NCBI RefSeq assembly: GCF_030013205.1
Contig: NZ_CP122648.1
DNA from: Escherichia coli
GTDB lineage: Bacteria; Pseudomonadota; Gammaproteobacteria; Enterobacterales; Enterobacteriaceae
Reading direction: 5' to 3' (one strand)
Length of the DNA stretch: 64,000 bases
The notes beneath the pieces were generated by a model. The model was not told the origin of the DNA and made no database searches. It saw only the letters and a program-made list of their open reading frames with translations. Both the position numbers and the translations under genes were made by a program. Positions 3,741-39,400 of this stretch are shown here, piece after piece. Each line of letters begins with the position of its first letter. The stretch's first letter is position 1.

Positions 3741-4859
3741 ATGCATAACCAGGCTCCAATTCAACGTAGAAAATCAACACGTATTTACGTTGGGAATGTG
3801 CCGATTGGCGATGGTGCTCCCATCGCCGTACAGTCCATGACCAATACGCGTACGACAGACGTCGAAGCAACGGTCAATCAAATCAAGGCGTTGGAACGTG
3901 TTGGCGCTGATATCGTCCGTGTCTCAGTACCGACGATGGACGCGGCAGAAGCGTTCAAACTCATCAAACAGCAGGTTAACGTGCCGCTGGTGGCTGACAT
4001 CCACTTCGACTATCGCATTGCGCTGAAAGTAGCGGAATACGGCGTCGATTGTCTGCGTATTAACCCTGGCAATATCGGTAATGAAGAGCGTATTCGCATG
4101 GTGGTTGACTGTGCGCGCGATAAAAACATTCCGATCCGTATTGGCGTTAACGCCGGATCGCTGGAAAAAGATCTGCAAGAAAAGTATGGCGAACCGACGC
4201 CGCAGGCGTTGCTGGAATCCGCCATGCGTCATGTTGATCATCTCGATCGCTTGAACTTCGAACAGTTCAAAGTCAGCGTGAAAGCGTCAGACGTCTTCCT
4301 CGCTGTTGAGTCTTATCGTTTGCTGGCAAAACAGATCGATCAGCCGCTGCATCTGGGGATCACCGAAGCGGGTGGTGCGCGCAGCGGGGCGGTTAAATCC
4401 GCCATTGGTTTAGGTCTGCTGCTGTCTGAAGGCATTGGCGACACGCTGCGCGTATCGCTGGCGGCCGATCCGGTTGAAGAGATCAAAGTCGGTTTCGATA
4501 TTTTGAAATCGCTGCGTATCCGTTCGCGCGGGATCAACTTCATCGCCTGTCCAACCTGTTCGCGTCAGGAGTTTGATGTTATCGGTACGGTTAACGCGCT
4601 GGAGCAACGCCTGGAAGATATCATCACTCCGATGGACGTTTCGATTATCGGCTGTGTGGTGAATGGCCCAGGTGAGGCGCTGGTTTCTACACTCGGCGTC
4701 ACCGGCGGTAACAAGAAAAGCGGCCTCTATGAAGATGGCGTGCGCAAAGACCGTCTGGACAACAACGATATGATCGACCAGCTGGAAGCGCGCATTCGTG
4801 CGAAAGCCAGTCAGCTGGACGAAGCGCGTCGAATTGACGTTCAGCAGGTTGAAAAATAA
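3741..4859 (+). CDS. ispG: 4-hydroxy-3-methylbut-2-enyl diphosphate synthase (IspG/GcpE)
   Basis: 372-aa ORF starting [18 protein letters not shown]; Fe-S cysteines CPTCSR and GCVVNGPGE near the C-terminus. Confidence 0.95.
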
Positions 4860-4955
4860 TAACGTGATGGGAAGCGCCTCGCTTCCCGTGTATGATTGAA
4901 CCCGCATGGCTCCCGAAACATTGAGGGAAGCGTTGAGGGTTCATTTTTATATTCA
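4860..4955 (+). ncRNA. sroE: possible SroE-like small RNA in the ispG-hisS intergenic region
   Basis: Recalled only: an sRNA is reported 3' of ispG in E. coli; the spacer shows a stem (gggaagcgcctcgcttccc). No independent sequence proof. Confidence 0.3.
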
Positions 4956-13478: not shown

Positions 13479-16400
13479 ATGTCCCTGACCCTGAATAAAA
13501 TCCTTGTGTTATGCGCATTGCTGATAAGCGCAATGCTGCCTGGGTGGTCATGGGCAGAATCTGCATGGCAAGACTCTTCAGATACGGTCGGCGAATTTAA
13601 CGGTACCGTGCCCACCGCCGACAGTGCCAGCATACCCGTCTACCAGGGCAGTGTCTTTCTGGATCCTGCAAAGACGCATGAGGTAGCGTTTACCGCTAAA
13701 CCGAGTGAATTCAGCGCGGATATTAGCGTCTCTAAATTGCTCGTCACCAATCCGCAAGACAGAGAAGGCGATATCATTTCCACCCCACGTTGGGAAAACC
13801 AAACGCCACCGACAGTATCTTTAGTTTGGGCGGATGCCGCGACGCCGGACACCTTACTGGACCCACAGCCAGTCGCAGATCGCTCGTTTTGCGCTCAGGG
13901 ACTTGCCGGGCGTTCGCTGGTCGCCTGGGCGCAGCCTGATCCCCAACAGACCATGCCGCTGTTATATTTACTCACCTCGACGGGCTATCCCTATGAAAGT
14001 GTTCTGACGCTCGCCGATCAGAAAGTGACGCTGAAGATTGCGCCCGCGCAGGGTGACCTTATTTCCGTCAGCGCCGCGGGCTATGACGAATCCTCCGGTG
14101 CGGCGAAAACGACGGTTGGCGGCAGTATCACGTTAACGGTCACCACCAAAGATTGCGTCGGTAATGTTGTGGGGAATATTCCTTTTGTTATCAAACGCAA
14201 AGATGCTGAAAACCGCCAGGGTGTGGTGAACAATACTGCGCCGGTAAAACTGGGCACGACCGAATTAACCACCACCGCGACGGAATATCGTGGTACTACC
14301 GATGCGAATGGTGTTGCCACGGTTACGGTCACCCAGGCCAACGGCCCTGGTGTAAAAACGCCGTTGGTCGCGAGCCTTGCGGGTATTGCTCAGGCCAGTG
14401 AAACGGCAGTGATCTTTACCGTCCTCACCAGCCCGGATGTCCCGCAGGCTACAATGTGGGGTCATATGCCCGATACGCTGAAGGCCCGTGATTACACTTT
14501 TAGTCGACCAAAACTGGCGGCGGAAGTCGATAATGAAGACGGTACGGTTAACGATCACAATGAAACCTGGTCCACCTTTACCTGGAGCGGCGCGGATAAA
14601 CATTGCGACATTTTGCCCGGAATGCGTCAGTTCGGTGCGCTGGCGACGGTGGTGCCAACGTCAGTGCAGGATGTGGCTGGTTGGCCGATGCAGGGTAATT
14701 TCTACTGGTCATCACTGGCGGGGATGAGTGGCCAGCACCATGCGGCGGATGTTTCGAACCGCAGCGAAGCGCAAAAACCGGACGATACGACGTTTATTGT
14801 GAGCTGTGTCGATAAAGAAGCGCCCGATGTTGAACCGAAGCTGGTACTGACGCCGGGCAGTTATGATTCGACGATAAAAGCGATGAAAGTAAAGGTGGGG
14901 GAAGAGGCTTCTTTACGCCTGACGATTACCGATAGCAAGAACAACGATCAGCCGCTGGCGTACTACTACTTTTCGCTGCATCTGGATGACGGCGTTAACC
15001 GTAAGAATCAAACTGACACCGCGTGGCAGGCGAATCCGGTACAAATAGCGGGCGGCAGTAATGTCCATCAGGTTGACGCGCATACCTATGAAGGGATCAC
15101 TGATGCTAACGGAGAGGCCTCTCTGACGCTGACCCAGCCAGGCGGTGTGGGGGTGAAAACTCACATCACCGCGAGAATGCGCAGCGATTTTACCGCCTCG
15201 GATGAGAAAGACGTTATTTTTACGGTGATCACCAGCCCTGATTCCGACAAAGCGCGGATGTGGGGACATATGTTGGGCATTATTGAAGCGAATAATATCT
15301 TTAAACGCCCACGGCTGGCGGATGAAACCGACAACGAACTGGGTGCAGTGCGGGAAAATAACGAAGACTGGGCGCTGTTTGATCAGAATAGCAGTATGCA
15401 GGCTGAGTGTGGTTTAGGTCATATTCCGAGCCAAAGCTCATTGCACAGTTTGTTTGCCGCACATCCAGCCAATGTCATCGGCACCGAATATGGCTGGCCA
15501 ACGTTGCAAAAAGCGTATCTTAGTGCGGTGGAAGAGACGTCGCACGCGTCGGTGAACCTGGCCACGGGCAACATCGACACCTATTCCGGCTTTAAGCAAA
15601 ACTACCTTTCTTGTTCGGGCAATGAGATGGTCGCCCAGATTGCTGCGACCACCGATCATGATGTTTCCACAAGCAGCAGAGCGCAGGCTAAAGTGGGTGA
15701 AACGATTACCATGACGGTACGCACCTTTAATGCCTTGAATAATGCGCCCGTGCCGTATACCGCGTTCACCATCACTAAAGATATGGGGAAAAATCGTCAG
15801 GGGCAGAGCACGGGTTTCGATGATCCAACCCGCGGCGCAATCGAGATGAATGGCACGCTCTACGGAACATCGCAACCGTCTTTAGTCTATGCAGGTACTA
15901 CGGATGCGCAGGGTTTTGCTACTGTGGAAATTAAGCAACCGCAAGGTGTGGGCTTAGCGACGCCGCTGAATATTGCGCCTGTAAACTCCTATATTCCCAA
16001 TACTGTTAATTACAATGTGATTTTCACTACGCTCACCAGTCCGGATGCGGTTGGCGCGCAGATGTGGGGGCATATGGATGAGACGATTACCGTCGATGCA
16101 TTAACCTTTGCCCGACCCCGGCTGGCTGCGGAAGTGTCCAGCCCGGACGGCACATTAACGGAAAATAACGAAGTGTGGTCGCGCGTTAGCCAGGCCAACA
16201 CTTCCAGCACCAGTAAAGGTGGCTGTGGTGCCAATATGCTCCCACGCCGTTCCCAGCTTAACGCGCTCTATGATGCTAACAGCGGTAACGCCGTTCAAAC
16301 GGTACACGGTTGGCCAACGCAGCGTCAGCCCTACTGGAGCAGTTCGCCCGCGGATCAGGTGCCGCATTACTACACCATAGCCCTCAACGATGGCGCGCGG

Positions 16401-19400
16401 ACCGTTGGCGGTAGCACGGCGGTTTATGTCAGTTGCCTGACGACGGCTAACAATCCTGCCAGCAGCATTACGCTGGAAGTGGTGGACCCGGCGCAGTGGA
16501 ACGCGGCAGCAAATGCGGCGAAGCTGAAAAAAGGCGAAACGCTACAGGTGAAGGTGACGGTAAAAGATGCTCAGGGCAATCCATTGGGTGATATGCCTTT
16601 TACGCTGAAGCGTGGCGATGGTTATACCCGATCAAACGAAAAACACATTGCCGGTAGCGGTGATGCGCTGGTTGCGCCGGTTGTGATCAATAGTGGCCTG
16701 GCGGATGAAACTTCGCTCAATGATACCGCCGCAGCATACAGCGCGATGACCGGTAGCGATGGCACTAAAATTCTCACTATTACCCGCCCGGATACCCATG
16801 GCACAAAAACGTCGCTGACCGCCGCGCTCTATTCAGACACAACGAAAAAAGCGACCCTCGATACCATTTTTACCGTTGTCACCAGCCCAGACAGCAATAA
16901 AGCGAAAATGTGGGGGCATATGCCGGAAACGGTGACGGCTGCGGATGGAACGGTCTTTAAACGCCCATTATTGTTGAAAGAGTTATCCAGTACGTCGGGT
17001 CGAACAGCGATTGCAGAAGATAATGAGGACTGGGCGCAATTTACCCAAACTCAGGCGACAAGCACATCCTCTAATGGTTGTGGTAGTGAATATGTTCCCT
17101 CTCAGGCCGGGCTGGAGTCATTGTATGAAGCCAACCGCGGCAATGCGATGAAAACGGTTCAGGGCTGGCCCGTCGCCTCAAGTTACCTTACCAGCACGAC
17201 AGGCAGCAGTAGTCTGGAACAGCGTGACTTAAAGGCCGTCAATCTCAGTTCAGGCACCAGTTCGATAATTCCATCGGCCACAAAAGAACTGCTTACCTGC
17301 CAGACGACGCCGATCGTCAAGGCTAGCCAAATCGTTCTTGAGGCTGCGGACCCCACAAAATTTGACAGTACGAATAATGTTGTCAAAGCGAAAAAAGGGG
17401 AAGAAGTCGTGGTTCGCGTGACCACTAAAGATTCGCAGGGTAACCCGGTGGGAAATACCGCGTTTACGCTTAAACGTAACCTTAGCGTCAATCGGGCAAA
17501 TGCGTCTACAACGGTGACAGCAGGCGCGCTCATCGTGACGGATGCCTGGGGTAACACGCAGAGTAATTTTTCCTCAACAACAGCACTGATTTATGGCGTT
17601 ACCGGCGCAGATGGTACGACAACACTTGCACTGAAACAGGACAATACCACGGGTTTAAAAACCGAACTGACCGCCATGCTGGATACAGATAATAACGTAA
17701 AATCAATGCTTCCGGTGGTCTTTACGGTGATAACCAGCCCCGATACCCCTAAAGCAAAATTCTGGGGGCATATGGCCGAAACGATGACCGGTGCAGGCGG
17801 GCTTATTTATAAAAGACCGTTATTGCAAGATGAGCTTTCCGTTACAACCAGTCGAAGCTCTTTTCAGGAAGATGGAGAGAGCTGGTCACTGTTCTCGCCG
17901 GACCAGTCGAACAACACATCTGTAAATGGTTGCGGTGCAGGATATGTCCCGATTGAAAGTGAGCTGGAGTCACTGTATGCCGATGAAGGTTACGTGCCAA
18001 TACATGACGTTACGGGATGGCCTGTATCACGCGCCTATATCTCCAGTACGGTTGTTGCCTATTACACTCAAACATTTAATTTTAAAGCGGTTTCGTTAAA
18101 AACGGGTGATGGAACGGAGGTCATGTCAAGCAGTCTAGGACTGCTAAGTTGTCGGGCTACCCCAGTGGCGGTGACCAGCCACATTATTGTTGAAGCGAAC
18201 GATGCGACACAATTTGTCAAAGTTGACGAAACCCTCAGCGCACTAAAACGGAAAAAAGGTGACGACGCGGTGATTCGCGTGGTGACAAAAGATGCGCAGG
18301 GAAATGTCGTACCAAATGTTCCGTTTATTCTCAAACGTGAAGGATCGACAAATCGCCAGAATGTACAGTTGTCGAACAGAACTATCACTGTAATCAACGC
18401 TGCGGGAACGTCGGCAAGAGTGGATACTCCATCAATCTCCCTTTATGCGGTGACAGGTGCAGACGGGACAGCCACGTTTACGGTAAAGCAGGATGATTCT
18501 ATAGGCCTGGTAACCAATGTGTACGCTCAGGCCTATCAGTCGAGCCTGGAATCCAACAAATTACCCGTGATGTTTACCGTGATAACCAGCCCGGATACCC
18601 CCCTGGCAAGTTACTGGGGGCATATGGCGGAAACGTTCACTACGCGTTCTGGTACTGCCTTCAAACGCCCCTTACTCTCTGCTGAAAGATCGTCGGGCCA
18701 GTCGTTTATAGAAGACAATGAAGAGTGGGCCGTGTTGAGATCGGCAACAAAGGGGGATATCGATAAAAGCGGGTGCGATGTACATTATCAACCACTGTTA
18801 AGCGAACTACAGGCATTGTACGACGAACACCCAAGTCGTGCGATAAAGACCGATCTGGGTATTCCGGTAAATAGCTACTGGTGGGCTTACGACATGGTGG
18901 CATATGCGGGTAACTGGTACGATCAATATATTTATCTGTTAAATGGATCAAGTGGAAGAGCGTCTTCAACCACCTCGGCATTAATGCTGTGCCTGGTAAA
19001 CCCTCATCCAGAGGCGGCTTCTATTGAAATGACCTCAACGGCGGAGGATGCAACGAAAACGGCCAGCAATGATGGCAGGCCCAGCGCAACAGCGAAGAAG
19101 GGAGAGGTTATCCCGATGACTGTTACGGTGCGAGATAGCGCAGGCAATCCACTGCCAGGTGCCAGCTTTAACCTTAAACGAGGAACTGCGCTGAACCGCG
19201 CTAAAGCTGCGTACGATGCCTCTGCAGATGATCTTACCATCATACCTGTGGAACCTACTGGGGTAACGTCAATCTTGTATGGGGATGGGACGCAGGCTCT
19301 TCTGAAGACAGGGAGCGATGGTAAAGCTACGTTTGAGGTCAGCCAGAATAGCAGTTATGGGCTGTCAACGCCGCTCAGCGCAGAACTCATGCGCGATACC

Positions 19401-21521
19401 TCGAAAAGCGTCACGCTGGATGTCATTTTCACGGTGATAACCAGCCCGGATTCGCCAAAAGCGAAATACTGGGGCCATATGCCGGAAACGTTTACCAGTT
19501 CGGCAGGCGTGACCTTCAAGCGCCCATTACTGGCAGCGGAAGCGACTACGGGGAGCTCGGTAAACGGTAATAATGAGACATGGTCATATATATATAGTAC
19601 TCAAAAAGCGACGGCAGATTGTTCGCTGGAATATCAACCGCGCCTCAGCGAATTGCAGGGGTTATATGACGATCACCCAAACGGGGCGTTAACGAAAGAT
19701 CTGGGGTTGCCGATAGCGTCAGGAAACTGGTGGATTTATGAATTGCTTAACTCCAATGGTAGCTCCTGGTATTATCAGGTCTTTAACCTAAGTACGGGAC
19801 GAGTATCATCCGCACTCTCTCCGGTTGCTCTAATGCTCTGCCTGGCACAGCCTCACTCTAAGCCGTCAAGCGTTACCCTGACTTCAATAGCATTTGATGA
19901 GACGAGAACCGCAAGTAACGGCGGCACACCTTCGGCATCGGCGAAAAAGGGCGAGACAATCCCGTTAGTCGTGACAGTAAAAGACCAAAATGGCAACCTG
20001 GTGAGTGGTGAGGGCGTGACGCTTCAGCGGGCGCAGGCGAAAAGTCGTTCAGGAATTAGGCCCTCATCGTTGGCAGATGATCTTATTGTAGATGTTGTCA
20101 CACCGACAGCAACCCGTATTTCTTTTGCTCAGGATACGGCAAAATGGCTTGGTTTTACCGGCAGTGATGGCACAGTGACGTTCAATGTTACGCAAAACGC
20201 CACCACCGGCCTGGCAACGCCGTTTACGGTCTCGCTTGCACAAGATCCGCAGATCACGTCAAACTTGGACCTGATATTTACCGTGGTCACCAGCCCTGAC
20301 GCCCAGGATGCCGACTACTGGGGTCATATGCCAGAAACGGTGACAGCGGCAAATGGAACCGTCTTTGAACGACCGAAATTGTGGAAGGAGCTGCCATCGA
20401 CCTCCGGGGTAAATAAAACCAATAACAATAATGAGGACTGGCCCTATTTTTCGTCAACCACTAAAGCAAATGCCAGCCTCAGCCCTTGTGAGGAAGCCCG
20501 GCAACCGTTGCTCAGCGATATGAAGTCACTGTATCAACGTTATCCCAATAACACCCTTACGACGGAAACTGGCTGGTCAGTTTATTATTACTGGTGGGCG
20601 CAGGATAAGACTACAGATGGTAAAAATCAGTCGCTCAATATGAAAGATGGCACAACGACATTGAATGGTAATGCCGCTTATCAGGCGTGTCTGGTGTCTG
20701 CGCGCGCGACGGTTTCCAGCGTCACACTGACCTCAACAGCGTTTGATGCTGACAGCCAGGCGGCGAAAGTGAAAAAAGGCGAAGCCATGCCCGTTACCGT
20801 GACGGTGAAAGACAGCGCCGGGAATACGGTACCGAATGTGGAATTTACTTTGAAACGTGGCGATGCATCGCCGCGTAACGCTGGGGCGACGTTGTATGGT
20901 GATGTGGTGGCGATGGACGATCTCATCGTTCAGCCGTTATCTGGTTCGGCTGTTACGCTGAGTGAAAGCGGTAATACCATTAGTGGCATGACAGGCGCGG
21001 ATGGGACGGCAAGTTTTACGCTCCGCCAGGATAATACCCCTGGTTATAAAACGCCACTGACGGTTACTCTGGCTAATTACGCTTCCGCGACAGACACGCT
21101 GGACGCTATTTTTACGGTACCAACCAGCCCGAATGTTTCCTCGGCGCACTTTTGGGGACATATGGCAGACACTGTAGTGGTGAATGGTAAATCGCTACAT
21201 CGACCGTTGTTAACGACAGAATTGCCGTCCGGGGCTAATCCCGTATCCTCACCGATTATTAACTACGAAAACTGGGCTTCTGCACATATCATTGATGCCA
21301 GTAAATGGGATATTGCAAGGCAGTGTGGCAGCATAGAAAATGCACCGACATACAATGAATTAGAGTTGTTGCACACTGTTTTTAATTCACTGGGATGGCC
21401 GTCTTCACCAAGTTTTCCTTATTTGTCCTCTCAACAGTGTGGGATGGACGAAGGCACTGGAGCACAGGATTGTAGTATCACGCTAATGAATAAACCGGGT
21501 CTGGTGACCTGCTTCCAGTAA
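13479..21521 (+). CDS. giant RatA/RatB-like secreted repeat protein (9 tandem ~290-aa repeats)
   Basis: 2680-aa ORF with signal peptide; nine repeats each marked by IFTV(I/V)TSPD..(K/A)..WGHM; repeat-internal opposite-strand ORFs are artefacts. Confidence 0.7.
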
Positions 21522-26423: not shown

Positions 26424-27674
26424 GTGCTTACCGATACAAAATTAAAAAACCTCAAGCCGCAGGACAAACTGTACAAGGTCTCCGATCGTGACGGGCTGTA
26501 TGTAGCTGTGCTTACGTCAGGCACGGTCTCATTTCGTTATGACTACCGTATCAACGGTCGCCGCGAAACACTGGTAATCGGGCAGTATGGGCGTGACGGT
26601 ATCAGCCTGGCAGAAGCGCGGGAAGAACTGATTGCTGCAAAGAAGCTGCTTAAAGCAGGCCAGTCACCGGCTGCGGCTAAACGTGACGGTATCAAAAAGA
26701 TTCGTGGTGCCGAAACGTTTGCGGTACATACCGACAGTTATATGAAACACGTCATCCTGGCTGAAAGTACCCGCGCAATGAAGCAGGCAGTGATCGACCG
26801 TGACATACTTCCGGTTCTTGGCAACAAAATGATGGCTGAAATTACCACATCGATGGTTCGTGATTTGTGTGACCGGATTGTCGAACGCGGTGGCCGGGCA
26901 ACAGCAGTGCAGGCCAGGGAGATCATCAGCAGCGTATACCGTCACGCCAATGACCGTGGTCATGGTTTGTTTAATCCTGCGGCTGACATTAAGCCTTCGT
27001 CTATCGCCATATTTAAACCACGAGAGCGAACACTGACACCAGAAGAAATTGGCCTGTTCTTCCGCACGTTGGATGCCATTGGTGCTATGGGCACTATGAA
27101 AATGGCTTTAAAACTGGTGCTTATCACTATGGTTCGTAAGGGCGAATTCACCAATGCAACGTGGGATGAAATAGATTTTAAAAAATGGACATGGACAATT
27201 CCTTCAGACCGCATGAAGGGAAGCCGGGCGCATGTTATTTACCTGCCTAAACAGGCTCAGGATATATTGGTCGGGTTGCAGATGTGCGCTGGTGGAAGTG
27301 AATATCTGGTTCCTGGTCGTTACAATTTCCGGAAGCCATTATCTAATGCCGCGCTGAACTCTCTGATCGACAGAACGGTGAAAATAATAAATGAAGATGG
27401 TGAGCATATTCAGGATTTCACCGTACACGATATGCGCCGTACAGCCAGTACGTTGTTGCATGAGGCTGGTTATCCTTCAGACTGGATTGAAAAGGCTCTG
27501 GCACATGAGCAGAAAGGTGTGCGCGCCGTATATAACAAAGCGGAATACGCCAGACAGCGCGCCTACATGTTGCAGCAGTGGGCCGATATGATTGATTCCT
27601 GGATTAACGGGGAGCATACGGATCTGATTCCGTTCTCCCCGTCGAAGTTTGAGAAGTGGATGGCGGGGGAATAA
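26424..27674 (+). CDS. int: tyrosine-type site-specific integrase (P4-like, N-terminal DUF4102-type arm-binding domain)
   Basis: 416-aa ORF (GTG start) with LTDTKLKNLKP...YKVSDRDGLYVAV N-terminus and C-terminal catalytic region (HDMRRTASTLL...AYNK); sits next to attL. Confidence 0.9.
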   Translation: MLTDTKLKNLKPQDKLYKVSDRDGLYVAVLTSGTVSFRYDYRINGRRETLVIGQYGRDGISLAEAREELIAAKKLLKAGQSPAAAKRDGIKKIRGAETFAVHTDSYMKHVILAESTRAMKQAVIDRDILPVLGNKMMAEITTSMVRDLCDRIVERGGRATAVQAREIISSVYRHANDRGHGLFNPAADIKPSSIAIFKPRERTLTPEEIGLFFRTLDAIGAMGTMKMALKLVLITMVRKGEFTNATWDEIDFKKWTWTIPSDRMKGSRAHVIYLPKQAQDILVGLQMCAGGSEYLVPGRYNFRKPLSNAALNSLIDRTVKIINEDGEHIQDFTVHDMRRTASTLLHEAGYPSDWIEKALAHEQKGVRAVYNKAEYARQRAYMLQQWADMIDSWINGEHTDLIPFSPSKFEKWMAGE

Positions 27675-31582: not shown

Positions 31583-32167
31583 TTATTGTTTGTTTTTTTC
31601 GTTCTGGTTGATGACAAATTCAATGTAACTTTCGATCTTTGCTTTCTCGGTTTCGGGTAACAATGCGTAGCGCGAGCGATCATAGTTGATGGTCGCAGGG
31701 TCGTGCGGGTGAATCAGTAATTCATAGCCGTGACGCCCGAATGCGGATGCAACATTCTCCAGGGTGGAAATGGAAACGCTGACCTCATTGTTTAACAGGC
31801 GGCTGATTGTCACCTGGGCTACGCCGGATGCGCGGTGAAGTTTTCCCTGTGTTGAAAGGTCGCGGCTTTCGCTCATCCAGCGTTCCAGGTTGTGAGCCGC
31901 CAGCTGGCCAATGTCGCTTGGGCCGACAGGCTGAAAACCTTCCTGAGAAAGCGAGCGATCGATATCAAGCCAGTTACGGGGTTTATTGGCGGCAGCTTCA
32001 ATTTTTCGTGCAACCTGGTCGCCGATAACCTTCTTGCCAAGAGCCCAGCGGTTTACCAGATTTGCCTGAGTTCCAAGTTTTTCAGCCATCCGCGTCTGAA
32101 CACCATTGAATTCACGGTCGATCAAGTCGTTGAGATTTTGCCTGCGGACGTCCTGGATACTTTTCAT
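31583..32167 (-). CDS. prophage repressor with two HTH domains and no peptidase domain
   Basis: N-terminal XRE-like HTH (TRMAEKLGTQANLVNRWALGKK) and second HTH-like segment (GVAQVTISRLLNNE); divergent from a cro-like gene with operator-like palindromes between them. Confidence 0.65.
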   Translation of the reverse strand: MKSIQDVRRQNLNDLIDREFNGVQTRMAEKLGTQANLVNRWALGKKVIGDQVARKIEAAANKPRNWLDIDRSLSQEGFQPVGPSDIGQLAAHNLERWMSESRDLSTQGKLHRASGVAQVTISRLLNNEVSVSISTLENVASAFGRHGYELLIHPHDPATINYDRSRYALLPETEKAKIESYIEFVINQNEKNKQ

Positions 32168-32221: not shown

Positions 32222-32286
32222 ATTACCCAACAGGTAAATGCACCTCATAGGTAACTATCCTTGATTTTTGTTACCTTATGGGTGAA
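32222..32286. promoter_or_regulatory. immunity-region operator cluster (three ATTACC-N5-GGTAAT-like sites)
   Basis: Sites at 32222-32238, ~32240-32255 and 32270-32286 in the repressor/cro intergenic region; OR1-3-like layout. Confidence 0.5.
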
Positions 32287-32321
32287 TATTTATTATCTGA
32301 AATAAATATCAGGCAATAGCT

Positions 32322-32552
32322 ATGAGCGATAACGGACATTTCGATTTCAAAAAGCACTGGCTTGCACTTACTCCGGATGAGCGTGAAGCCTTCGCACAGG
32401 AAGCCGGAACGACGAGTCACTATATCCAGACTCACTTAACAGGTAAGCGCAAAATGCCAGGTAAAGTATTGATGAATGGGCTTTTTAAAGCCTGTAAAAC
32501 AAGACAATGGCTGCGCTCAAAAGCAGAACTGGCATACTTCTTCTACTCATGA
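32322..32552 (+). CDS. Cro-like small DNA-binding protein
   Basis: 76-aa ORF divergent from the repressor; first gene of the rightward early operon. Confidence 0.5.
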   Translation: MSDNGHFDFKKHWLALTPDEREAFAQEAGTTSHYIQTHLTGKRKMPGKVLMNGLFKACKTRQWLRSKAELAYFFYS

Positions 32553-32702
32553 TATCCAGCTACAACCCTCTGTAGACCGCCACCCGGCGGTCTTTTCATA
32601 TCTATTCGTACCTCAAAGGTAATAAATAACCAAATCTGGTTGATCTTTTTTTTGTGTCAGCACAAAATGACCGTAATCCCAATACTAATAACAGGGCTTA
32701 CC

Positions 32703-32903
32703 ATGGAAATCATTACACGTATTGATGCCGCAAAGCGCGGACTTAAACGCTACTACACCGGAAAACCATGCAAGCACGGACATGACAGTGAACGCTGGGT
32801 TTACAACGGACACTGTGTTGAGTGCACCATGGAATCAAACCGTCGTATCAGGGCAGAGATTAAGCAGATCATGATTAATTCCTCCCCACAACATTCAAGC
32901 TGA
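32703..32903 (+). CDS. small Cys/His-rich phage protein
   Basis: 66-aa ORF (MEIITRIDAAKRG...) with CKHGH...CVEC; preceded by an operator-like site at 32608-32623. Confidence 0.4.
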   Translation: MEIITRIDAAKRGLKRYYTGKPCKHGHDSERWVYNGHCVECTMESNRRIRAEIKQIMINSSPQHSS

Positions 32904-32918
32904 TAGCGGAGATTAATC

Positions 32919-33752
32919 ATGAGCAGACATGCAACAGATTGGGCCTGGGAGACAGATCCAGGTAGCTCGTCATTAAAGCTCATACTGCTCTCGATGGCTG
33001 ACAGAGCCGATGAATATAACCTCTGCTACCCCAGCATAGAACGCCTCGTTAAAGACACTTGCCTGAATAAAAAAACCGTGCAGGCCGGGCTTATATCGCT
33101 CATGAAAATGGGGCTTATTTCAGATACCGGAGAGAGAAAGGGAGCGACGAAAAGAGTGCGGGTTTTCTCTCTTAATATAACCAAAAACGGGAACATTAAA
33201 GGCAACCGGGAAGGGGGTAATGGACCCGAAAACGGTAATGTTACCGAAAACGGTAATGTTACCGAAAACGGGAATATACCCAAAAACGGGATGTTGAATG
33301 ATCCCAAAAACGGGATGTTGAATGATCCCAAAAACGGGATCCAGAACCAGTCATATAACCAGTCATTTAACCAAGAGAGGGAGAGCAGGACAAAAAGCGG
33401 GGATTCTGTGCCTCATGACCCCGGCGCAAACAACGCCGTGATGAATAACTTTGTTCCTCCTGGTGGGCCAGGGCAATTAGGCAAATTTGTCATGCATGAA
33501 CAATGGCAGCCATCAGATGACTTTCTTCGGAAAAGCTCATTGCAGGGGATCTACCTGGACAGTCTGCCAACGGCACAGGAACTTGCAGAGTTCAGAATTT
33601 ACTGGATGGCTGAGGGTAAGGCATACCATCAGGCACAGTGGGAGCAGAAGCTGGCAAGGCGGCTGCAGATTAGCAGACAGAAGCAATCAACATTACCTGA
33701 TAACAACGTTCCGCACTGGAACAGCCCTGAAGCATGGGAGGATTTCTTGTGA
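32919..33752 (+). CDS. replication initiator (lambda O-like) with in-gene iterons
   Basis: N-terminal winged-helix-like region (LKLILLSMADRADEYNLCYPSIERL), internal DNA iterons, immediately upstream of a P-like gene. Confidence 0.6.
   Translation: MSRHATDWAWETDPGSSSLKLILLSMADRADEYNLCYPSIERLVKDTCLNKKTVQAGLISLMKMGLISDTGERKGATKRVRVFSLNITKNGNIKGNREGGNGPENGNVTENGNVTENGNIPKNGMLNDPKNGMLNDPKNGIQNQSYNQSFNQERESRTKSGDSVPHDPGANNAVMNNFVPPGGPGQLGKFVMHEQWQPSDDFLRKSSLQGIYLDSLPTAQELAEFRIYWMAEGKAYHQAQWEQKLARRLQISRQKQSTLPDNNVPHWNSPEAWEDFL
33226..33345. repeat. iteron array (3 x 18 bp + 3 x 24 bp) inside the O-like gene; candidate ori
   Basis: gaaaacggtaatgttacc repeats followed by cccaaaaacgggatgttgaatgat repeats; encodes GNVTEN/GMLNDPKN peptide repeats. 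Confidence 0.6.
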
Positions 33753-34534
33753 ACAACGTTTTTACCGCGATACAAAACCGTGACGGAGAAGCCCTTTCTC
33801 GCATGTCAGGTTATGAGCATCAGTACGTCAACAATGACAATGTGGTGAACATGTCAGCAGAGAGGCTTGTTGATGCCCTTTTTAAACAGCTGAAACAACT
33901 GTTTCCGGCGGCAGTGGTAACCAACCTGAAGACGCCAGAGCAGGAAGTTGCTGCAAAACAGCAGTGGATTGCTGCGTTTGCCGAAGGGGGGATCCGAACC
34001 CGTGAACAGGTTTCTGCTGGTATGCGCCACGCCCGCGCCAGTGAGTCTCCGTTCTGGCCGTCGCCAGGGCAATTCATCAAGTGGTGTAAAGACAGCAAGA
34101 TGGTTCTTGGCGTCACCATTGACGATGTGATGGCGGAGTTTCACCGGTACAGCAAGGAAAAAAGTTTATATCCTGGTGGTCCCGAAAGATTCCCGTGGCG
34201 ACATCCGGTTATGTACTGGGTCGTATGTGATACCCGCCGTGCAATGTATCAGCGCCAGCTTAGCGAGATTGAGGTTGAGAAACACGCGCGCAGGCTGCTC
34301 GATGATTGGGCGAAAAAGGTGGCTTCCGGACAGCAGATACCCGATCCGGTGATCAGCATACAGGCAAAGCCAGAGCCCATGAGTACGCCTCCGGACACAG
34401 GGAGAGACGTTTACCATCCACCAGGGCGAAGTTTCGGGTGTATGCCTAACGCCGCCACCCTGGGGGGAATAACACCGGCGCAGTGGCTGATAGAGGAATA
34501 CAGGCGGGGAAAGGCGGCAGGATTTATCAAGTAA
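33734..34534 (+). CDS. replication protein P-like (helicase loader)
   Basis: Segment REQVSAGMRHARASESPFWPSPGQFIKWCKD closely parallels the recalled lambda P segment MEQVNAGMRVARRQNRPFLPSPGQFVAWCRE. Confidence 0.75.
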   Translation: MGGFLVNNVFTAIQNRDGEALSRMSGYEHQYVNNDNVVNMSAERLVDALFKQLKQLFPAAVVTNLKTPEQEVAAKQQWIAAFAEGGIRTREQVSAGMRHARASESPFWPSPGQFIKWCKDSKMVLGVTIDDVMAEFHRYSKEKSLYPGGPERFPWRHPVMYWVVCDTRRAMYQRQLSEIEVEKHARRLLDDWAKKVASGQQIPDPVISIQAKPEPMSTPPDTGRDVYHPPGRSFGCMPNAATLGGITPAQWLIEEYRRGKAAGFIK

Positions 34535-38855: not shown

Positions 38856-39400
38856 TGTGCGATCCGGTTATTGCTGGTGGCGCAATGCTCGCCATGAGTG
38901 GCATTCAGGCATACACCCAGTACCAACAGGGAAAGTATGCCTCGAAGGTTGCAGAAGCGAACGCAGATATAGCCACAGCTCAGGCAAATGATGCAATAAA
39001 CAGAGGTAACGCTGAAGCTGAGCAACGGCGCAGAGAGACGCGACAGCGGCTTGGTACACAGGCGGCGACAATGGGGGCGACCGGCGCTGATTTATCTACC
39101 GGTAACGCGCTGGATATATTTGGTGACACTGCTCAGTTTGGCGCTCTTGATTCGCTGACGACGGTGAATAACGCGCAACGCGAGGCTTACGGTTATCAGG
39201 TTCAGGCTGCCAACTATAAAGCAGAAGCCAGTTCAGCCCGTAAACAGGGGAATGTGGGAGCAGCAACAACATTGCTCACTGCGCCTCTGAAGGCATACGG
39301 TGCGTACCAGATGTTTGGTGGGACGTGGAGTCCGTTTACTCAAAGCACCCCCGCGCCAATCAGGGCAGCAGCAGGAACCAGATTACCCGGAGGATTATAA
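38855..39400 (+). CDS. internal virion/ejection protein (small)
   Basis: 181-aa Ala/Gln-rich protein directly upstream of the SLT-domain protein, as in podovirus ejection-protein sets. Confidence 0.45.
   Translation: MCDPVIAGGAMLAMSGIQAYTQYQQGKYASKVAEANADIATAQANDAINRGNAEAEQRRRETRQRLGTQAATMGATGADLSTGNALDIFGDTAQFGALDSLTTVNNAQREAYGYQVQAANYKAEASSARKQGNVGAATTLLTAPLKAYGAYQMFGGTWSPFTQSTPAPIRAAAGTRLPGGL

What the first reader, a model, noticed from the sequence alone, without database searches (positions are those of the whole stretch)
33226..33345. Iteron array inside the O-like replication gene (candidate origin)
Three 18-bp repeats followed by three 24-bp repeats, all containing AAAACGG(G/T)A, lie in-frame within the O-like gene and encode a repetitive linker. 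This parallels lambda ori, which sits inside gene O.
Basis: partly seen in the sequence, partly recalled or inferred. Interest (0 to 1): 0.45.

Follow-up and report, generated by a model that had tools for sequence, protein, structure and literature searches.

The report
Replication-origin repeats inside phage initiator gene
The repeats are real and are most likely the replication origin of a phiV10-like prophage, built like the textbook lambda origin (initiator-binding sites inside the initiator's own gene), so this is an ordinary kind of feature in a protein family where nobody seems to have annotated it.

Summary
Seven same-strand copies of a 16-bp dyad (NNNCC-R-AAAA-C-GGNNN) lie at 33178-33340: one outlier, four spaced 18 bp apart, then three spaced 24 bp apart. 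A 12-bp repeat follows at 33345-33373. All sit in-frame in the linker of a 277-aa protein made of an N-terminal winged helix (HTH_36) and a DnaT-like C-terminus, directly upstream of a lambda-P-family gene, in a phiV10-like (Uetakevirus) prophage.

The conserved thing is DNA, not peptide:
- Relatives sharing the N-terminal domain, in phages of seven host genera, carry the motif at the same place.
- Some carry it in all three reading frames, with 17-, 22- or 25-bp periods.
- The arms show compensatory changes, and synonymous sites are fixed.
- Relatives sharing only the C-terminus have no repeats.
- Edwardsiella phage GF-2 joins this N-terminus and its repeats to lambda O's C-terminus exactly where lambda has its iterons.

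Copy number varies among near-identical prophages.

Best reading (about 0.77): an iteron-type origin bound by the gene's own product. Weak points are that no strong AT-rich tract follows the array in this window, there is no detectable homology to lambda O, and there is no experiment. This is a new member of a known kind; interest is moderate to low.

The parts
32919..33752 (+). Replication initiator gene (277 aa): N-terminal winged helix, repeat-encoded linker, DnaT-like C-terminal domain.
   Evidence: ORF. Pfam finds HTH_36 at aa 18-67 (E 4e-10) and DnaT at aa 190-258 (E 2e-15). The best PHROG is phrog_1032, 'replication initiation protein', E 1e-109. The DNA is 96-98% identical to phiV10 gp43.
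32919..33182 (+). Coding region of the N-terminal winged-helix domain (aa 1-88), the presumed iteron-binding domain.
   Evidence: AlphaFold2 gives mean pLDDT 93 with a four-helix, two-strand wing topology. Foldseek returns only weak matches (E 4e-3 or worse, TM about 0.5-0.6) to winged-helix DNA binders, including plasmid RepA N-terminal domains 4pql and 5kbj. A profile of the domain finds 2,561 cluster representatives at E<=1e-10, always at residues 1-88.
33178..33193 (+). Outlying, degenerate iteron 0 (TAACCAAAAACGGGAA), 45 bp upstream of the main array. It lies inside the least stable 40-mer of the gene (33162-33201).
   Evidence: It is conserved in all six close phage records aligned.
33223..33292 (+). 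Four iterons at 18-bp spacing (33223-38, 33241-56, 33259-74, 33277-92). The dyad is TTACCG-AAAA-CGGTAA and variants; the fourth unit is transitional, TACCCAAAAACGGGAT.
   Evidence: This window has one more 18-bp unit than phiV10.
33301..33340 (+). Two further iterons at 24-bp spacing (33301-16, 33325-40), ATCCCAAAAACGGGAT. With the unit at 33277 they form the 100%-identical 24-bp array.
   Evidence: The unit resembles lambda iterons (ATCCCTCAAAACGAGGGA) and GF-2 units (ATCCCAAAATTGGGAT).
33341..33376 (+). Second repeat class, CAGAACC-AGTCATAT-AACC-AGTCATTT-AACC (12-bp period, 2.4 copies). It is the candidate unwinding or loading element and sits at a fixed distance from the last iteron.
   Evidence: TRF. 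Vibrio phage H20 has the same sequence with a 13-bp period, so its copies fall in different frames. Analogous 9-12-bp repeats occur in Bcep176, Mcat8 and Ab105-2phi. QNxS follows the last unit at +5 aa in 53 of 59 representatives. Stability here is only moderately low (z 1.56, GC 0.42).
33474..33731 (+). Coding region of the DnaT-like C-terminal domain (aa 186-271).
   Evidence: phmmer against PDB matches the E. coli DnaT C-terminal ssDNA-binding domain (4ou6, 4ou7, 6aep, 2ru8, 9zbt) at E about 1e-19 to 1e-21.
33734..34534 (+). Lambda-P-family helicase-loader gene, overlapping the end of the initiator gene.
   Evidence: Pfam Phage_lambda_P, E 2e-56. PHROG phrog_109, 'P-like helicase loader', E 6e-91.
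32268..32296 (+). Rightward early promoter-like site whose transcript would read through the initiator gene and origin. This is context and is inferred.
   Evidence: Consensus scan, 9 of 12 matches. It lies between a divergent repressor-like ORF (31583-32167, minus strand) and a cro-like ORF (32322-32552). The layout matches the phiV10 annotation.

Best explanation
The array is the replication origin of a phiV10-like temperate phage, embedded in the coding sequence of its own initiator.

**Proposed mechanism.**
1. After derepression, rightward early transcription makes the 277-aa initiator and the lambda-P-like loader.
2. The initiator's N-terminal winged-helix domain, acting as a dimer, binds each 16-bp dyad (arms converging on an A-tract). 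Six or seven occupied sites, spaced 18 and then 24 bp apart, assemble a bent nucleoprotein complex like the lambda O-some.
3. This destabilises flanking DNA. The candidates are the CAGAACC/AGTCAT repeat segment immediately to the right or the low-stability left edge of the array.
4. The C-terminal DnaT-like domain, together with the P-like protein, then brings in host DnaB to start theta replication.

**Shown here.**
- The repeats exist, are dyads, and are constrained as DNA.
- They travel with the N-terminal domain and not with the C-terminal one.
- They sit where lambda's iterons sit.
- Their copy number varies among near-identical prophages.

**Inferred.** Binding by the N-terminal domain, unwinding, helicase loading, and origin activity.
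For: 1. **Clustering far beyond chance**, single strand, single array in 64 kb.
2. **Dyad units with compensatory arm changes.**
   - Within the window, TTACC/GGTAA alternates with ATCCC/GGGAT.
   - Across 31 distinct units from 8 phages, the covariation score is 0.215 against 0.135 shuffled (0 of 500 shuffles reach it).
   - 73.7% of cells are paired, against at most 46% in slid registers.
3. **A DNA constraint, not a peptide one.**
   - In the EBPR podovirus 1 the units fall in frames 1,2,0,0,1,0 with spacings of 25, 34, 33, 22 and 23 bp. Bcep176 has periods of 17 and 22 bp.
   - In 130 cluster representatives, all three frame-translations of the motif are enriched 16- to 140-fold in the linker.
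   - Lys/Glu codons inside units end in A in 17 of 17 cases, against 106 of 216 elsewhere (p = 1e-5). Pro is CCC in 8 of 8 cases against 5 of 55 elsewhere.
4. **The repeats track the N-terminal domain.** They are present in GF-2, H20, PPompW, AP22, Ab105-2phi, EBPR1 and Bcep176. They are absent in SPN1S and Tyrion, which share only the DnaT-like C-terminus.
5. **The GF-2 chimera.** GF-2 has the same N-terminus and iterons fused to a C-terminus 62% identical to lambda O aa 156-299. The junction lies at the end of lambda's AT-rich tract.
6. **A conserved layout.** Where both spacings occur, the 18-bp units precede the 24-bp units in 31 of 32 representatives, and QNxS lies at a fixed +5 aa in 53 of 59.
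7. **Gene context and fold.** A P-like loader lies immediately downstream, the winged-helix model is confident, and PHROG families named 'replication initiation O-like' match the N-terminal half.
8. **Published iteron designs.** Lambda iterons are inverted repeats in the middle of O, and their number differs between lambda and Stx phages (PMC7466680). RepA_N iterons are inverted repeats converging on a poly-A tract (PMC7145576).
Against: - No experiment exists; everything about binding and firing is inferred.
- In this window the 40 bp after the array are only mildly unstable (z 1.56, GC 0.42), whereas lambda's are extreme (z 3.5, GC 0.23). AP22 and Ab105-2phi show no low-stability tract there at all.
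- The N-terminal domain is not demonstrably homologous to lambda O.
- The covariation units were picked with a pattern that already fixes CC...GG and a W4 centre, and they come from related sequences, so the shuffle statistics overstate significance.
- The 18-bp and 24-bp units differ in their outer arms, so it is not certain that one protein binds both equally.
Confidence: 0.77

Rival explanations
1. The sites are real initiator-binding sites, but their main job is control rather than initiation. They might serve autoregulation, a roadblock to read-through into the loader gene, titration or handcuffing of initiator, or incompatibility between related prophages. The true start site would then lie elsewhere, for example in the AT-rich intergenic stretch at 32619-32658.
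For: The least stable 40-mer of the region is at 32619-32658 (z 2.89), not next to the array. Iterons in plasmids are known to act in copy control as well as initiation (established knowledge; see also PMC4980987, listed). Copy number varies freely among near-identical prophages.
Against: GF-2 shows positional equivalence with lambda's proven origin. Several relatives do have their least stable DNA right after the array: EBPR1, Bcep176, Mcat8 and GF-2. No second cluster of sites exists anywhere in the window. Control and initiation roles are not mutually exclusive.
Confidence: 0.12
2. The repeats are only a slippage-prone, low-complexity protein linker (Asn/Gly/Pro/Lys-rich) between two domains, with no function as DNA.
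For: All units in this window are in one frame with periods of 18, 24 and 12 bp, all multiples of 3. The encoded peptide looks like a flexible linker. Copy number changes by whole units.
Against: - Relatives keep the same DNA motif in different frames and with periods that are not multiples of 3.
- Three unrelated peptides that share only the DNA motif are all enriched in the linker.
- Synonymous positions are fixed.
- Arm changes preserve the dyad.
- Proteins with the same C-terminal domain but another N-terminal domain have linkers without repeats.
Confidence: 0.04
3. The dyads are binding sites for some other factor, not for the gene's own product. Candidates are a host protein, or another phage protein such as the repressor, the Cro-like protein or the small ORF at 32640-32903.
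For: No binding data exist. The A-tract-centred dyads would bend DNA and could suit architectural proteins.
Against: The motif co-occurs with the N-terminal domain across hosts as different as Escherichia, Vibrio, Acinetobacter, Burkholderia and an activated-sludge podovirus, whose neighbouring genes differ. When the N-terminal domain diverges strongly (Mcat8), the repeat sequence changes too. There are no DnaA boxes nearby.
Confidence: 0.05

Closest known systems
Bacteriophage lambda ori within gene O (O-some origin; also Stx phages 933W and P27)
   Same: - The iteron array lies in the middle of the initiator gene, between a DNA-binding N-terminal domain and a C-terminal domain.
- Each iteron is an inverted repeat around an A-tract: lambda has ATCCCTCAAAACGAGGGA, this window has ATCCCAAAAACGGGAT.
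- A P-family loader gene follows.
- Iteron number differs between relatives and changes the protein length.
- The module is recombined as a unit, as GF-2 shows.

Sources; PMC7466680.
   Different: - The N-terminal domain is Pfam HTH_36, not Phage_rep_O, and has no detectable sequence similarity to lambda O.
- The C-terminus is DnaT-like rather than lambda-O-C.
- The units are 16 bp rather than 18-19 bp.
- There are six or seven units in a two-tier 18/24-bp layout rather than four.
- No strong AT-rich tract follows the array. A 12-13-bp GAACC/AGTCAT repeat sits there instead.
RepA_N plasmid and satellite initiators (pSK41, pTZ2162, Vibrio cholerae PLE RepA)
   Same: Both have a winged-helix N-terminal DNA-binding domain plus a variable, host-specific C-terminal domain. 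Both use iterons that are semi-palindromic direct repeats whose inverted arms converge on a poly-A tract (PMC7145576). In many RepA_N plasmids the origin lies inside the rep coding sequence (my own knowledge, from Weaver et al. 2009, which I could not read here).
   Different: There is no Pfam RepA_N match. Only weak fold-level similarity was found, to 4pql and 5kbj at Foldseek E 0.01-0.03 and TM about 0.5-0.6. The context here is a Proteobacterial phage with a lambda-P-type loader.
E. coli DnaT (primosomal protein I), the name most databases give this protein
   Same: The C-terminal 85 residues are homologous to the DnaT C-terminal ssDNA-binding domain.
   Different: The N-terminal two-thirds are unrelated to DnaT, being a winged helix plus iteron-encoded linker. 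The protein sits in a phage early operon next to a P-like loader. The names 'primosomal protein I' and 'DnaT' in phage records describe only one domain.

Membership tests
Lambda-type origin embedded in the initiator gene | An array of at least four direct repeats (iterons) inside the initiator coding sequence, between the N- and C-terminal domains. | tested here: met
   Seven units at 33178-33340, lying between aa 88 and aa 141 of a 277-aa protein.
Lambda-type origin embedded in the initiator gene | Each iteron is itself an inverted repeat, that is, a site for a dimer. | tested here: met
   Arms of 5-6 bp in this window and up to 8 bp in relatives. Compensatory changes occur at pairs 1-16, 3-14 and 6-11.
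Lambda-type origin embedded in the initiator gene | A markedly AT-rich unwinding tract immediately beside the iterons. | tested here: inconclusive
   The window's 40-mer after the array has z 1.56 and GC 0.42, while the left edge 33162-33201 has z 2.75. Lambda's tract has z 3.5. Relatives EBPR1, Bcep176, Mcat8 and GF-2 meet the criterion; AP22 and Ab105-2phi do not.
Lambda-type origin embedded in the initiator gene | The initiator is a homologue of lambda O. | tested here: not met
   Pfam gives HTH_36 plus DnaT only. BLASTP finds no similarity. hhalign gives 12% probability. The resemblance is therefore analogy or very remote homology.
Lambda-type origin embedded in the initiator gene | The array occupies the same position as lambda's iterons relative to a lambda-O-type C-terminal domain. 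| tested here: met
   In GF-2 gp62 the iterons and spacer end where 62% identity to lambda O aa 156-299 begins. That point is the end of lambda's AT-rich tract.
Lambda-type origin embedded in the initiator gene | A helicase-loader (P-type) gene immediately downstream. | tested here: met
   Phage_lambda_P, E 2e-56, at 33734-34534.
Lambda-type origin embedded in the initiator gene | The initiator binds the iterons, and a fragment carrying initiator, loader and iterons replicates autonomously. | not testable with these tools
   This needs EMSA or footprinting and a replicon-rescue assay.
RepA_N-type initiator and iterons | [quoted passage not shown] | tested here: met
   The units have the form NNNCC-R-AAAA-C-GGNNN. 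The definition comes from PMC7145576.
RepA_N-type initiator and iterons | A RepA_N (PF06970) N-terminal domain. | tested here: not met
   There is no Pfam hit to RepA_N; DnaD_N scores only E 0.36. The fold matches to 4pql and 5kbj are weak.
DnaT (primosomal protein I) | Full-length DnaT architecture: DnaT N-terminal domain plus the C-terminal ssDNA-binding domain. | tested here: not met
   Only aa 186-271 match DnaT residues 85-170. The N-terminus is HTH_36.

The most novel reading that the evidence does not exclude
The N-terminal winged helix and the DNA that follows it (16-bp A-tract dyads in an 18-then-24-bp layout, then GAACC/AGTCAT-type short repeats at a fixed 15-bp distance) may form an ancient, self-contained 'initiator plus origin' cassette. 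It would be shared by thousands of phage lineages across Gamma- and Betaproteobacteria and would recombine freely with different helicase-recruiting C-termini (DnaT-like, lambda-O-C, others).

Within this cassette the second repeat class may be more than an AT-rich tract. It could be a sequence-specific unwinding or loading element, read in duplex or single-stranded form. That would be a lambda-like origin whose opening site is specified by sequence rather than by base composition.
Probability: 0.3. Interest if true: 0.55.

Novelty: new member of a known kind. Interest (0 to 1): 0.36.

Why it matters
- **Annotation.** It assigns a probable origin to phiV10/Uetakevirus-type prophages. These occur in 423 of 5,426 complete E. 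coli genomes, where the gene is annotated only as 'DnaT-like' or 'primosomal protein'.
- **A recognisable signature.** A very large initiator family (2,561 clusters at E<=1e-10) can now be recognised by a DNA signature that shows up in protein sequences as PKNG/TENG, TQKR or PKT repeats.
- **Practical uses.** These include correct annotation and the design of phiV10-based reporter or delivery phages and mini-replicons. The work also explains the length polymorphism and the assembly breaks seen in this gene.
- **A test set.** It supplies natural iteron-number variants (one to five 24-bp steps) for studying how origin architecture tunes phage replication, or its detection by origin-sensing defence systems such as Lamassu (PMC12663957).

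Tried and rejected
- **Homology to lambda O.** BLASTP and hhalign of the N-terminal profile against the lambda O N-terminus (12% probability) do not support it.
- **PDB sequence search with the N-terminal profile**. Nothing was significant.
- **Foldseek against PDB**. It returned only generic winged-helix matches at E >= 4e-3. This is enough to support the fold but not a family.
- **DnaA boxes**. There are none near the array, and the count in the window equals chance.
- **AT-rich DUE right of the array**. It is not clearly present in this window.
- **IMG/VR scan with the N-terminal alignment**. It returned only near-identical E. coli prophages, which were useful for copy-number polymorphism but not for diversity.
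- **Literature searches** for iterons or an origin in epsilon15, phiV10 or DnaT-type phage initiators. They found nothing relevant, though the held library lacks most subscription-journal papers, including the phiV10 and epsilon15 genome papers. The paper on non-lambdoid Stx replication regions does not mention these features.
- **Terminator-like hairpins on the minus strand** at 33251-33330. I rejected them as terminators. They are the unavoidable pairing of adjacent iteron half-sites, and they lie antisense inside an ORF.
- **The alternative dyad register** (GGGAT-N8-ATCCC between neighbouring units). I rejected it because inter-unit spacing varies from 17 to 34 bp across relatives, while the A-tract-centred CC-N6-GG spacing is constant.

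Full report
**1. What is in the sequence.**

Region 33178-33376 lies inside ORF 32919-33752 (277 aa). Tandem Repeats Finder reports three arrays:
- an 18-bp array at 33216-33289 (4.1 copies);
- a perfect 24-bp array at 33279-33340 (2.6 copies);
- a 12-bp array at 33345-33373 (2.4 copies).

The whole window holds 11 matches where 1.16 are expected, and no shuffle out of 100 reached 11. The dyad core CCRAAAWYGG gives 7 of its 10 window matches here and shows no second cluster.

**2. Anatomy of a unit.**

Each copy is a 16-bp inverted repeat whose arms converge on an A-tract:
- TTACCG-AAAA-CGGTAA for the 18-bp-spaced units;
- ATCCC(A)-AAAA-(C)GGGAT for the 24-bp-spaced units.

The two types differ by paired changes that keep the arms complementary (T..A to A..T, and A..T to C..G). 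The terminator-like hairpins that the scan finds on the minus strand are simply neighbouring half-sites pairing with each other.

**3. The gene and its neighbourhood.**

- Pfam finds HTH_36 (aa 18-67) and a DnaT DNA-binding domain (aa 190-258).
- The C-terminus matches solved E. coli DnaT C-terminal structures at E about 1e-20.
- AlphaFold2 models aa 1-92 as a confident winged helix (pLDDT 93). Foldseek finds only weak fold-level matches (E 4e-3 or worse) to winged-helix DNA binders, including plasmid RepA N-terminal domains.
- The next gene, 33734-34534, is a lambda-P-family loader (PHROG 'P-like helicase loader').
- Upstream lie a divergent repressor-like ORF, a cro-like ORF, a promoter-like site and a terminator-like site.
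- The locus is 96-98% identical to Escherichia phage phiV10 gp43/gp44 and other Uetakevirus records. Those records name the protein 'primosomal protein I', 'DnaT' or 'replication initiation protein' and annotate no origin.
- The gene occurs in 423 of 5,426 complete E. coli genomes.

**4. Population variation.**

Close relatives differ by whole units. This window has one more 18-bp unit than phiV10, the BP9 record has one fewer 24-bp unit, and phiV10 has one more 12-mer. Among 80 IMG/VR loci whose N-terminal domains are 99-100% identical, the array carries one to five 24-bp steps, one to four 18-bp steps and one to three 12-mers. Full-length proteins range from 263 to 295 aa. Protein clusters of 271 to 311 aa appear.

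**5. Is it the DNA or the peptide that is conserved?**

A tblastn search shows that the N-terminal part (with the repeats) and the C-terminal part have different sets of relatives.

Phages sharing the N-terminal domain at 37-58% identity all carry the motif directly after that domain:
- Edwardsiella GF-2, with ATCCCAAAATTGGGAT, 2.8 copies of a 24-bp unit;
- Vibrio H20, with 4.6 copies;
- PPompW;
- Acinetobacter AP22;
- Acinetobacter Ab105-2phi, with four copies of GTACCGAAATTGGTAC followed by ATCCC-type units;
- an activated-sludge podovirus (EBPR podovirus 1);
- Burkholderia Bcep176.

Four results point to a DNA-level constraint:
- **Reading frames.** In the EBPR podovirus the six units sit in frames 1,2,0,0,1,0 with spacings of 25, 34, 33, 22 and 23 bp. 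In Bcep176 the periods are 17 and 22 bp. A peptide repeat cannot explain this.
- **Three peptides from one motif.** The N-terminal profile finds 2,561 clusters at E<=1e-10. In 130 representatives of at least 200 aa, each under 50% identical to the others, all three translations of the motif are concentrated in residues 83-175:
  - [PTSA][KE][NI]G: 29.4 per 1,000 aa in the linker, 0.32 elsewhere;
  - [PTSA][QR][KN][RW]: 7.1 in the linker, 0.44 elsewhere;
  - PK[TSLM]x: 5.5 in the linker, 0.04 elsewhere.
- **Synonymous positions.** Lys/Glu codons inside units are AAA or GAA in 17 of 17 cases, against 106 of 216 elsewhere (p = 1e-5). Pro is CCC in 8 of 8 cases against 5 of 55, and Thr is ACC in 7 of 7 against 21 of 86.
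- **Arm covariation.** On 31 distinct units the score is 0.215 against 0.135 shuffled (0 of 500 shuffles reach it), and slid registers collapse. The caveat is that the units are related and were selected with CC...GG already fixed.

**6. Negative control.**

SPN1S and Tyrion (both Uetakevirus) have the same DnaT-like C-terminal domain but other N-terminal domains. Neither has a repeat array in the gene. The repeats therefore belong with the winged helix, not with a general need for a linker. When the N-terminal domain diverges strongly (Moraxella Mcat8), the repeat sequence differs too: a 21-bp unit in 9.6 copies.

**7. Direct link to lambda.**

Lambda's record annotates four iterons at 39034-39118 inside O. 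They read ATCCCTCAAAACGAGGGA and similar, followed by a 40-bp AT-rich tract. GF-2 gp62 has the phiV10-type N-terminus and iterons, and then a C-terminus 62% identical to lambda O residues 156-299. That shared part includes the DNA of lambda's right-hand palindrome, GAGAATTCTGNCGAATCCTC.

The homology starts at the end of lambda's AT-rich tract. The winged helix, the iterons and the spacer have therefore been exchanged as one block for lambda's N-terminus, iterons and AT tract. This is the strongest argument that the block is an origin module. PMC7466680 states that lambdoid origins lie in the middle of O, that each iteron is an inverted repeat, and that iteron number differs between lambda (4) and Stx phages (6), with a matching change in protein length. 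PMC7145576 describes RepA_N iterons as inverted repeats converging on a poly-A tract, which is the same design.

**8. Conserved higher-order layout.**

In the representatives, spacings of 8 aa (24 bp; 133 cases) and 6 aa (18 bp; 56 cases) dominate. Where both occur, the 18-bp units come first in 31 of 32 proteins. In 53 of the 59 proteins that have both a unit and the motif, the last unit is followed at exactly 5 aa by Q-N-x-S. This is the translation of CAGAACC..., the start of the second repeat class.

That class is AACCAGTCATAT in 2.4 copies here. It recurs as AGAACCAGTCATT in 2.5 copies with a 13-bp period in Vibrio phage H20, so its copies there are read in different frames. It appears as GAACAGTAG in 3.8 copies in Bcep176 and as the AT-rich CCTATTAATAAA in 3.6 copies in Mcat8.

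**9. The weak point: where does the DNA open?**

I computed nearest-neighbour stability. Lambda's least stable 40-mer starts 4 bp after its iterons (z 3.5). The same holds, or nearly so, for four relatives:
- EBPR1: +8 bp, z 3.1;
- Bcep176: -10 bp, z 3.3;
- Mcat8: +6 bp, z 3.0;
- GF-2: +4 bp, z 2.2.

In this window the segment after the array is only mildly unstable (z 1.56, GC 0.42). The least stable in-gene 40-mer is at the left edge, 33162-33201 (z 2.75). AP22 and Ab105-2phi show nothing. The unwinding element is thus not identified with confidence. No DnaA boxes are nearby.

**10. Verdict.**

The protein is an analogue of lambda O, not a demonstrable homologue, and the lambda-style AT tract is not evident here.

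The most likely mechanism is an O-some-like complex of winged-helix dimers on six or seven dyads. It would open adjacent DNA and recruit DnaB through the DnaT-like domain and the P-like loader. My confidence is about 0.77 that the array is the origin and higher that it is a functional protein-binding DNA array. The rivals are control-only sites, a pure peptide linker, or sites for another factor; the comparative data weaken or largely exclude them.

I found no paper describing this origin, but the library is incomplete. Because the kind of feature is textbook, I rate it a new member of a known kind with moderate to low interest. The family-wide, frame-independent DNA signature and the second repeat class are the parts worth following up.

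Noticed in passing
window 33341-33376; L009 1968-2010; L098 about 1640-1680: A second repeat class lies directly after the last iteron. Here it is CAGAACC/AGTCATAT with a 12-bp period. Nearly the same DNA is present in a Vibrio phage with a 13-bp period, so its copies fall in shifting frames, and Bcep176 has GAACAGTAG in 3.8 copies. It gives the widespread peptide 'QNQS(L)EP(V)IEP'. Its function is unknown; it may be an unwinding or loading element.
   Followed up: partly
window 49048-49230 (minus strand): Rfam finds a C4 antisense RNA (78.6 bits) and an isrK Hfq-binding RNA (74.7 bits) side by side, upstream of ORF 48307-49044 (minus strand). This looks like a P1/P7-type antisense immunity or anti-repressor control module inside the prophage.
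   Followed up: no
window 4859-4950 and 1-about 26000: An sroE sRNA match (116.6 bits) and long ORFs suggest that the left part of the window is bacterial chromosome rather than prophage. An ORF of 416 aa at 26424-27674 may mark the prophage end. I did not check this.
   Followed up: no
window 13479-21521 (+): A single ORF of 2,680 aa, which I did not examine. It is presumably a giant surface or adhesin-type host protein.
   Followed up: no
L012 1048-1863 (SPN1S); L013 1240-2007 (Tyrion): Other Uetakevirus phages keep the DnaT-like C-terminal domain but carry unrelated N-terminal domains and no in-gene repeat array. SPN1S also lacks a P-like gene after it. Their origins must be organised differently.
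   Followed up: partly
L005 (YDC107_2), L007 (O157 typing phage 9), L006 (BP9), PH444: Public records show artefacts at this locus.
- YDC107_2 has extra A or G bases in the iteron homopolymers, which split the gene into fragments.
- The typing-phage 9 and 10 records break inside the array: the match starts at query base 326, and the N-terminal part lies at the other end of the record.
- A 138-kb Vequintavirus record (BP9) and a 115-kb record (PH444) carry this phiV10-type module, which suggests chimeric assemblies.
   Followed up: partly
window 33251-33330 (minus strand): The terminator scan reports three hairpin-plus-T-run sites antisense within the array. They are by-products of neighbouring iteron half-sites followed by the T-tract complement of the A-tract, and are not likely to be terminators.
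   Followed up: yes
window 32640-32903 (+): A small ORF (87 aa by the longest-start rule; the phiV10 homologue gp42 is annotated at 66 aa) lies between the cro-like gene and the initiator. Its product is Cys/His-rich (CKHGH...CVEC), perhaps a zinc-binding regulator in the position of cII. I did not analyse it.
   Followed up: no
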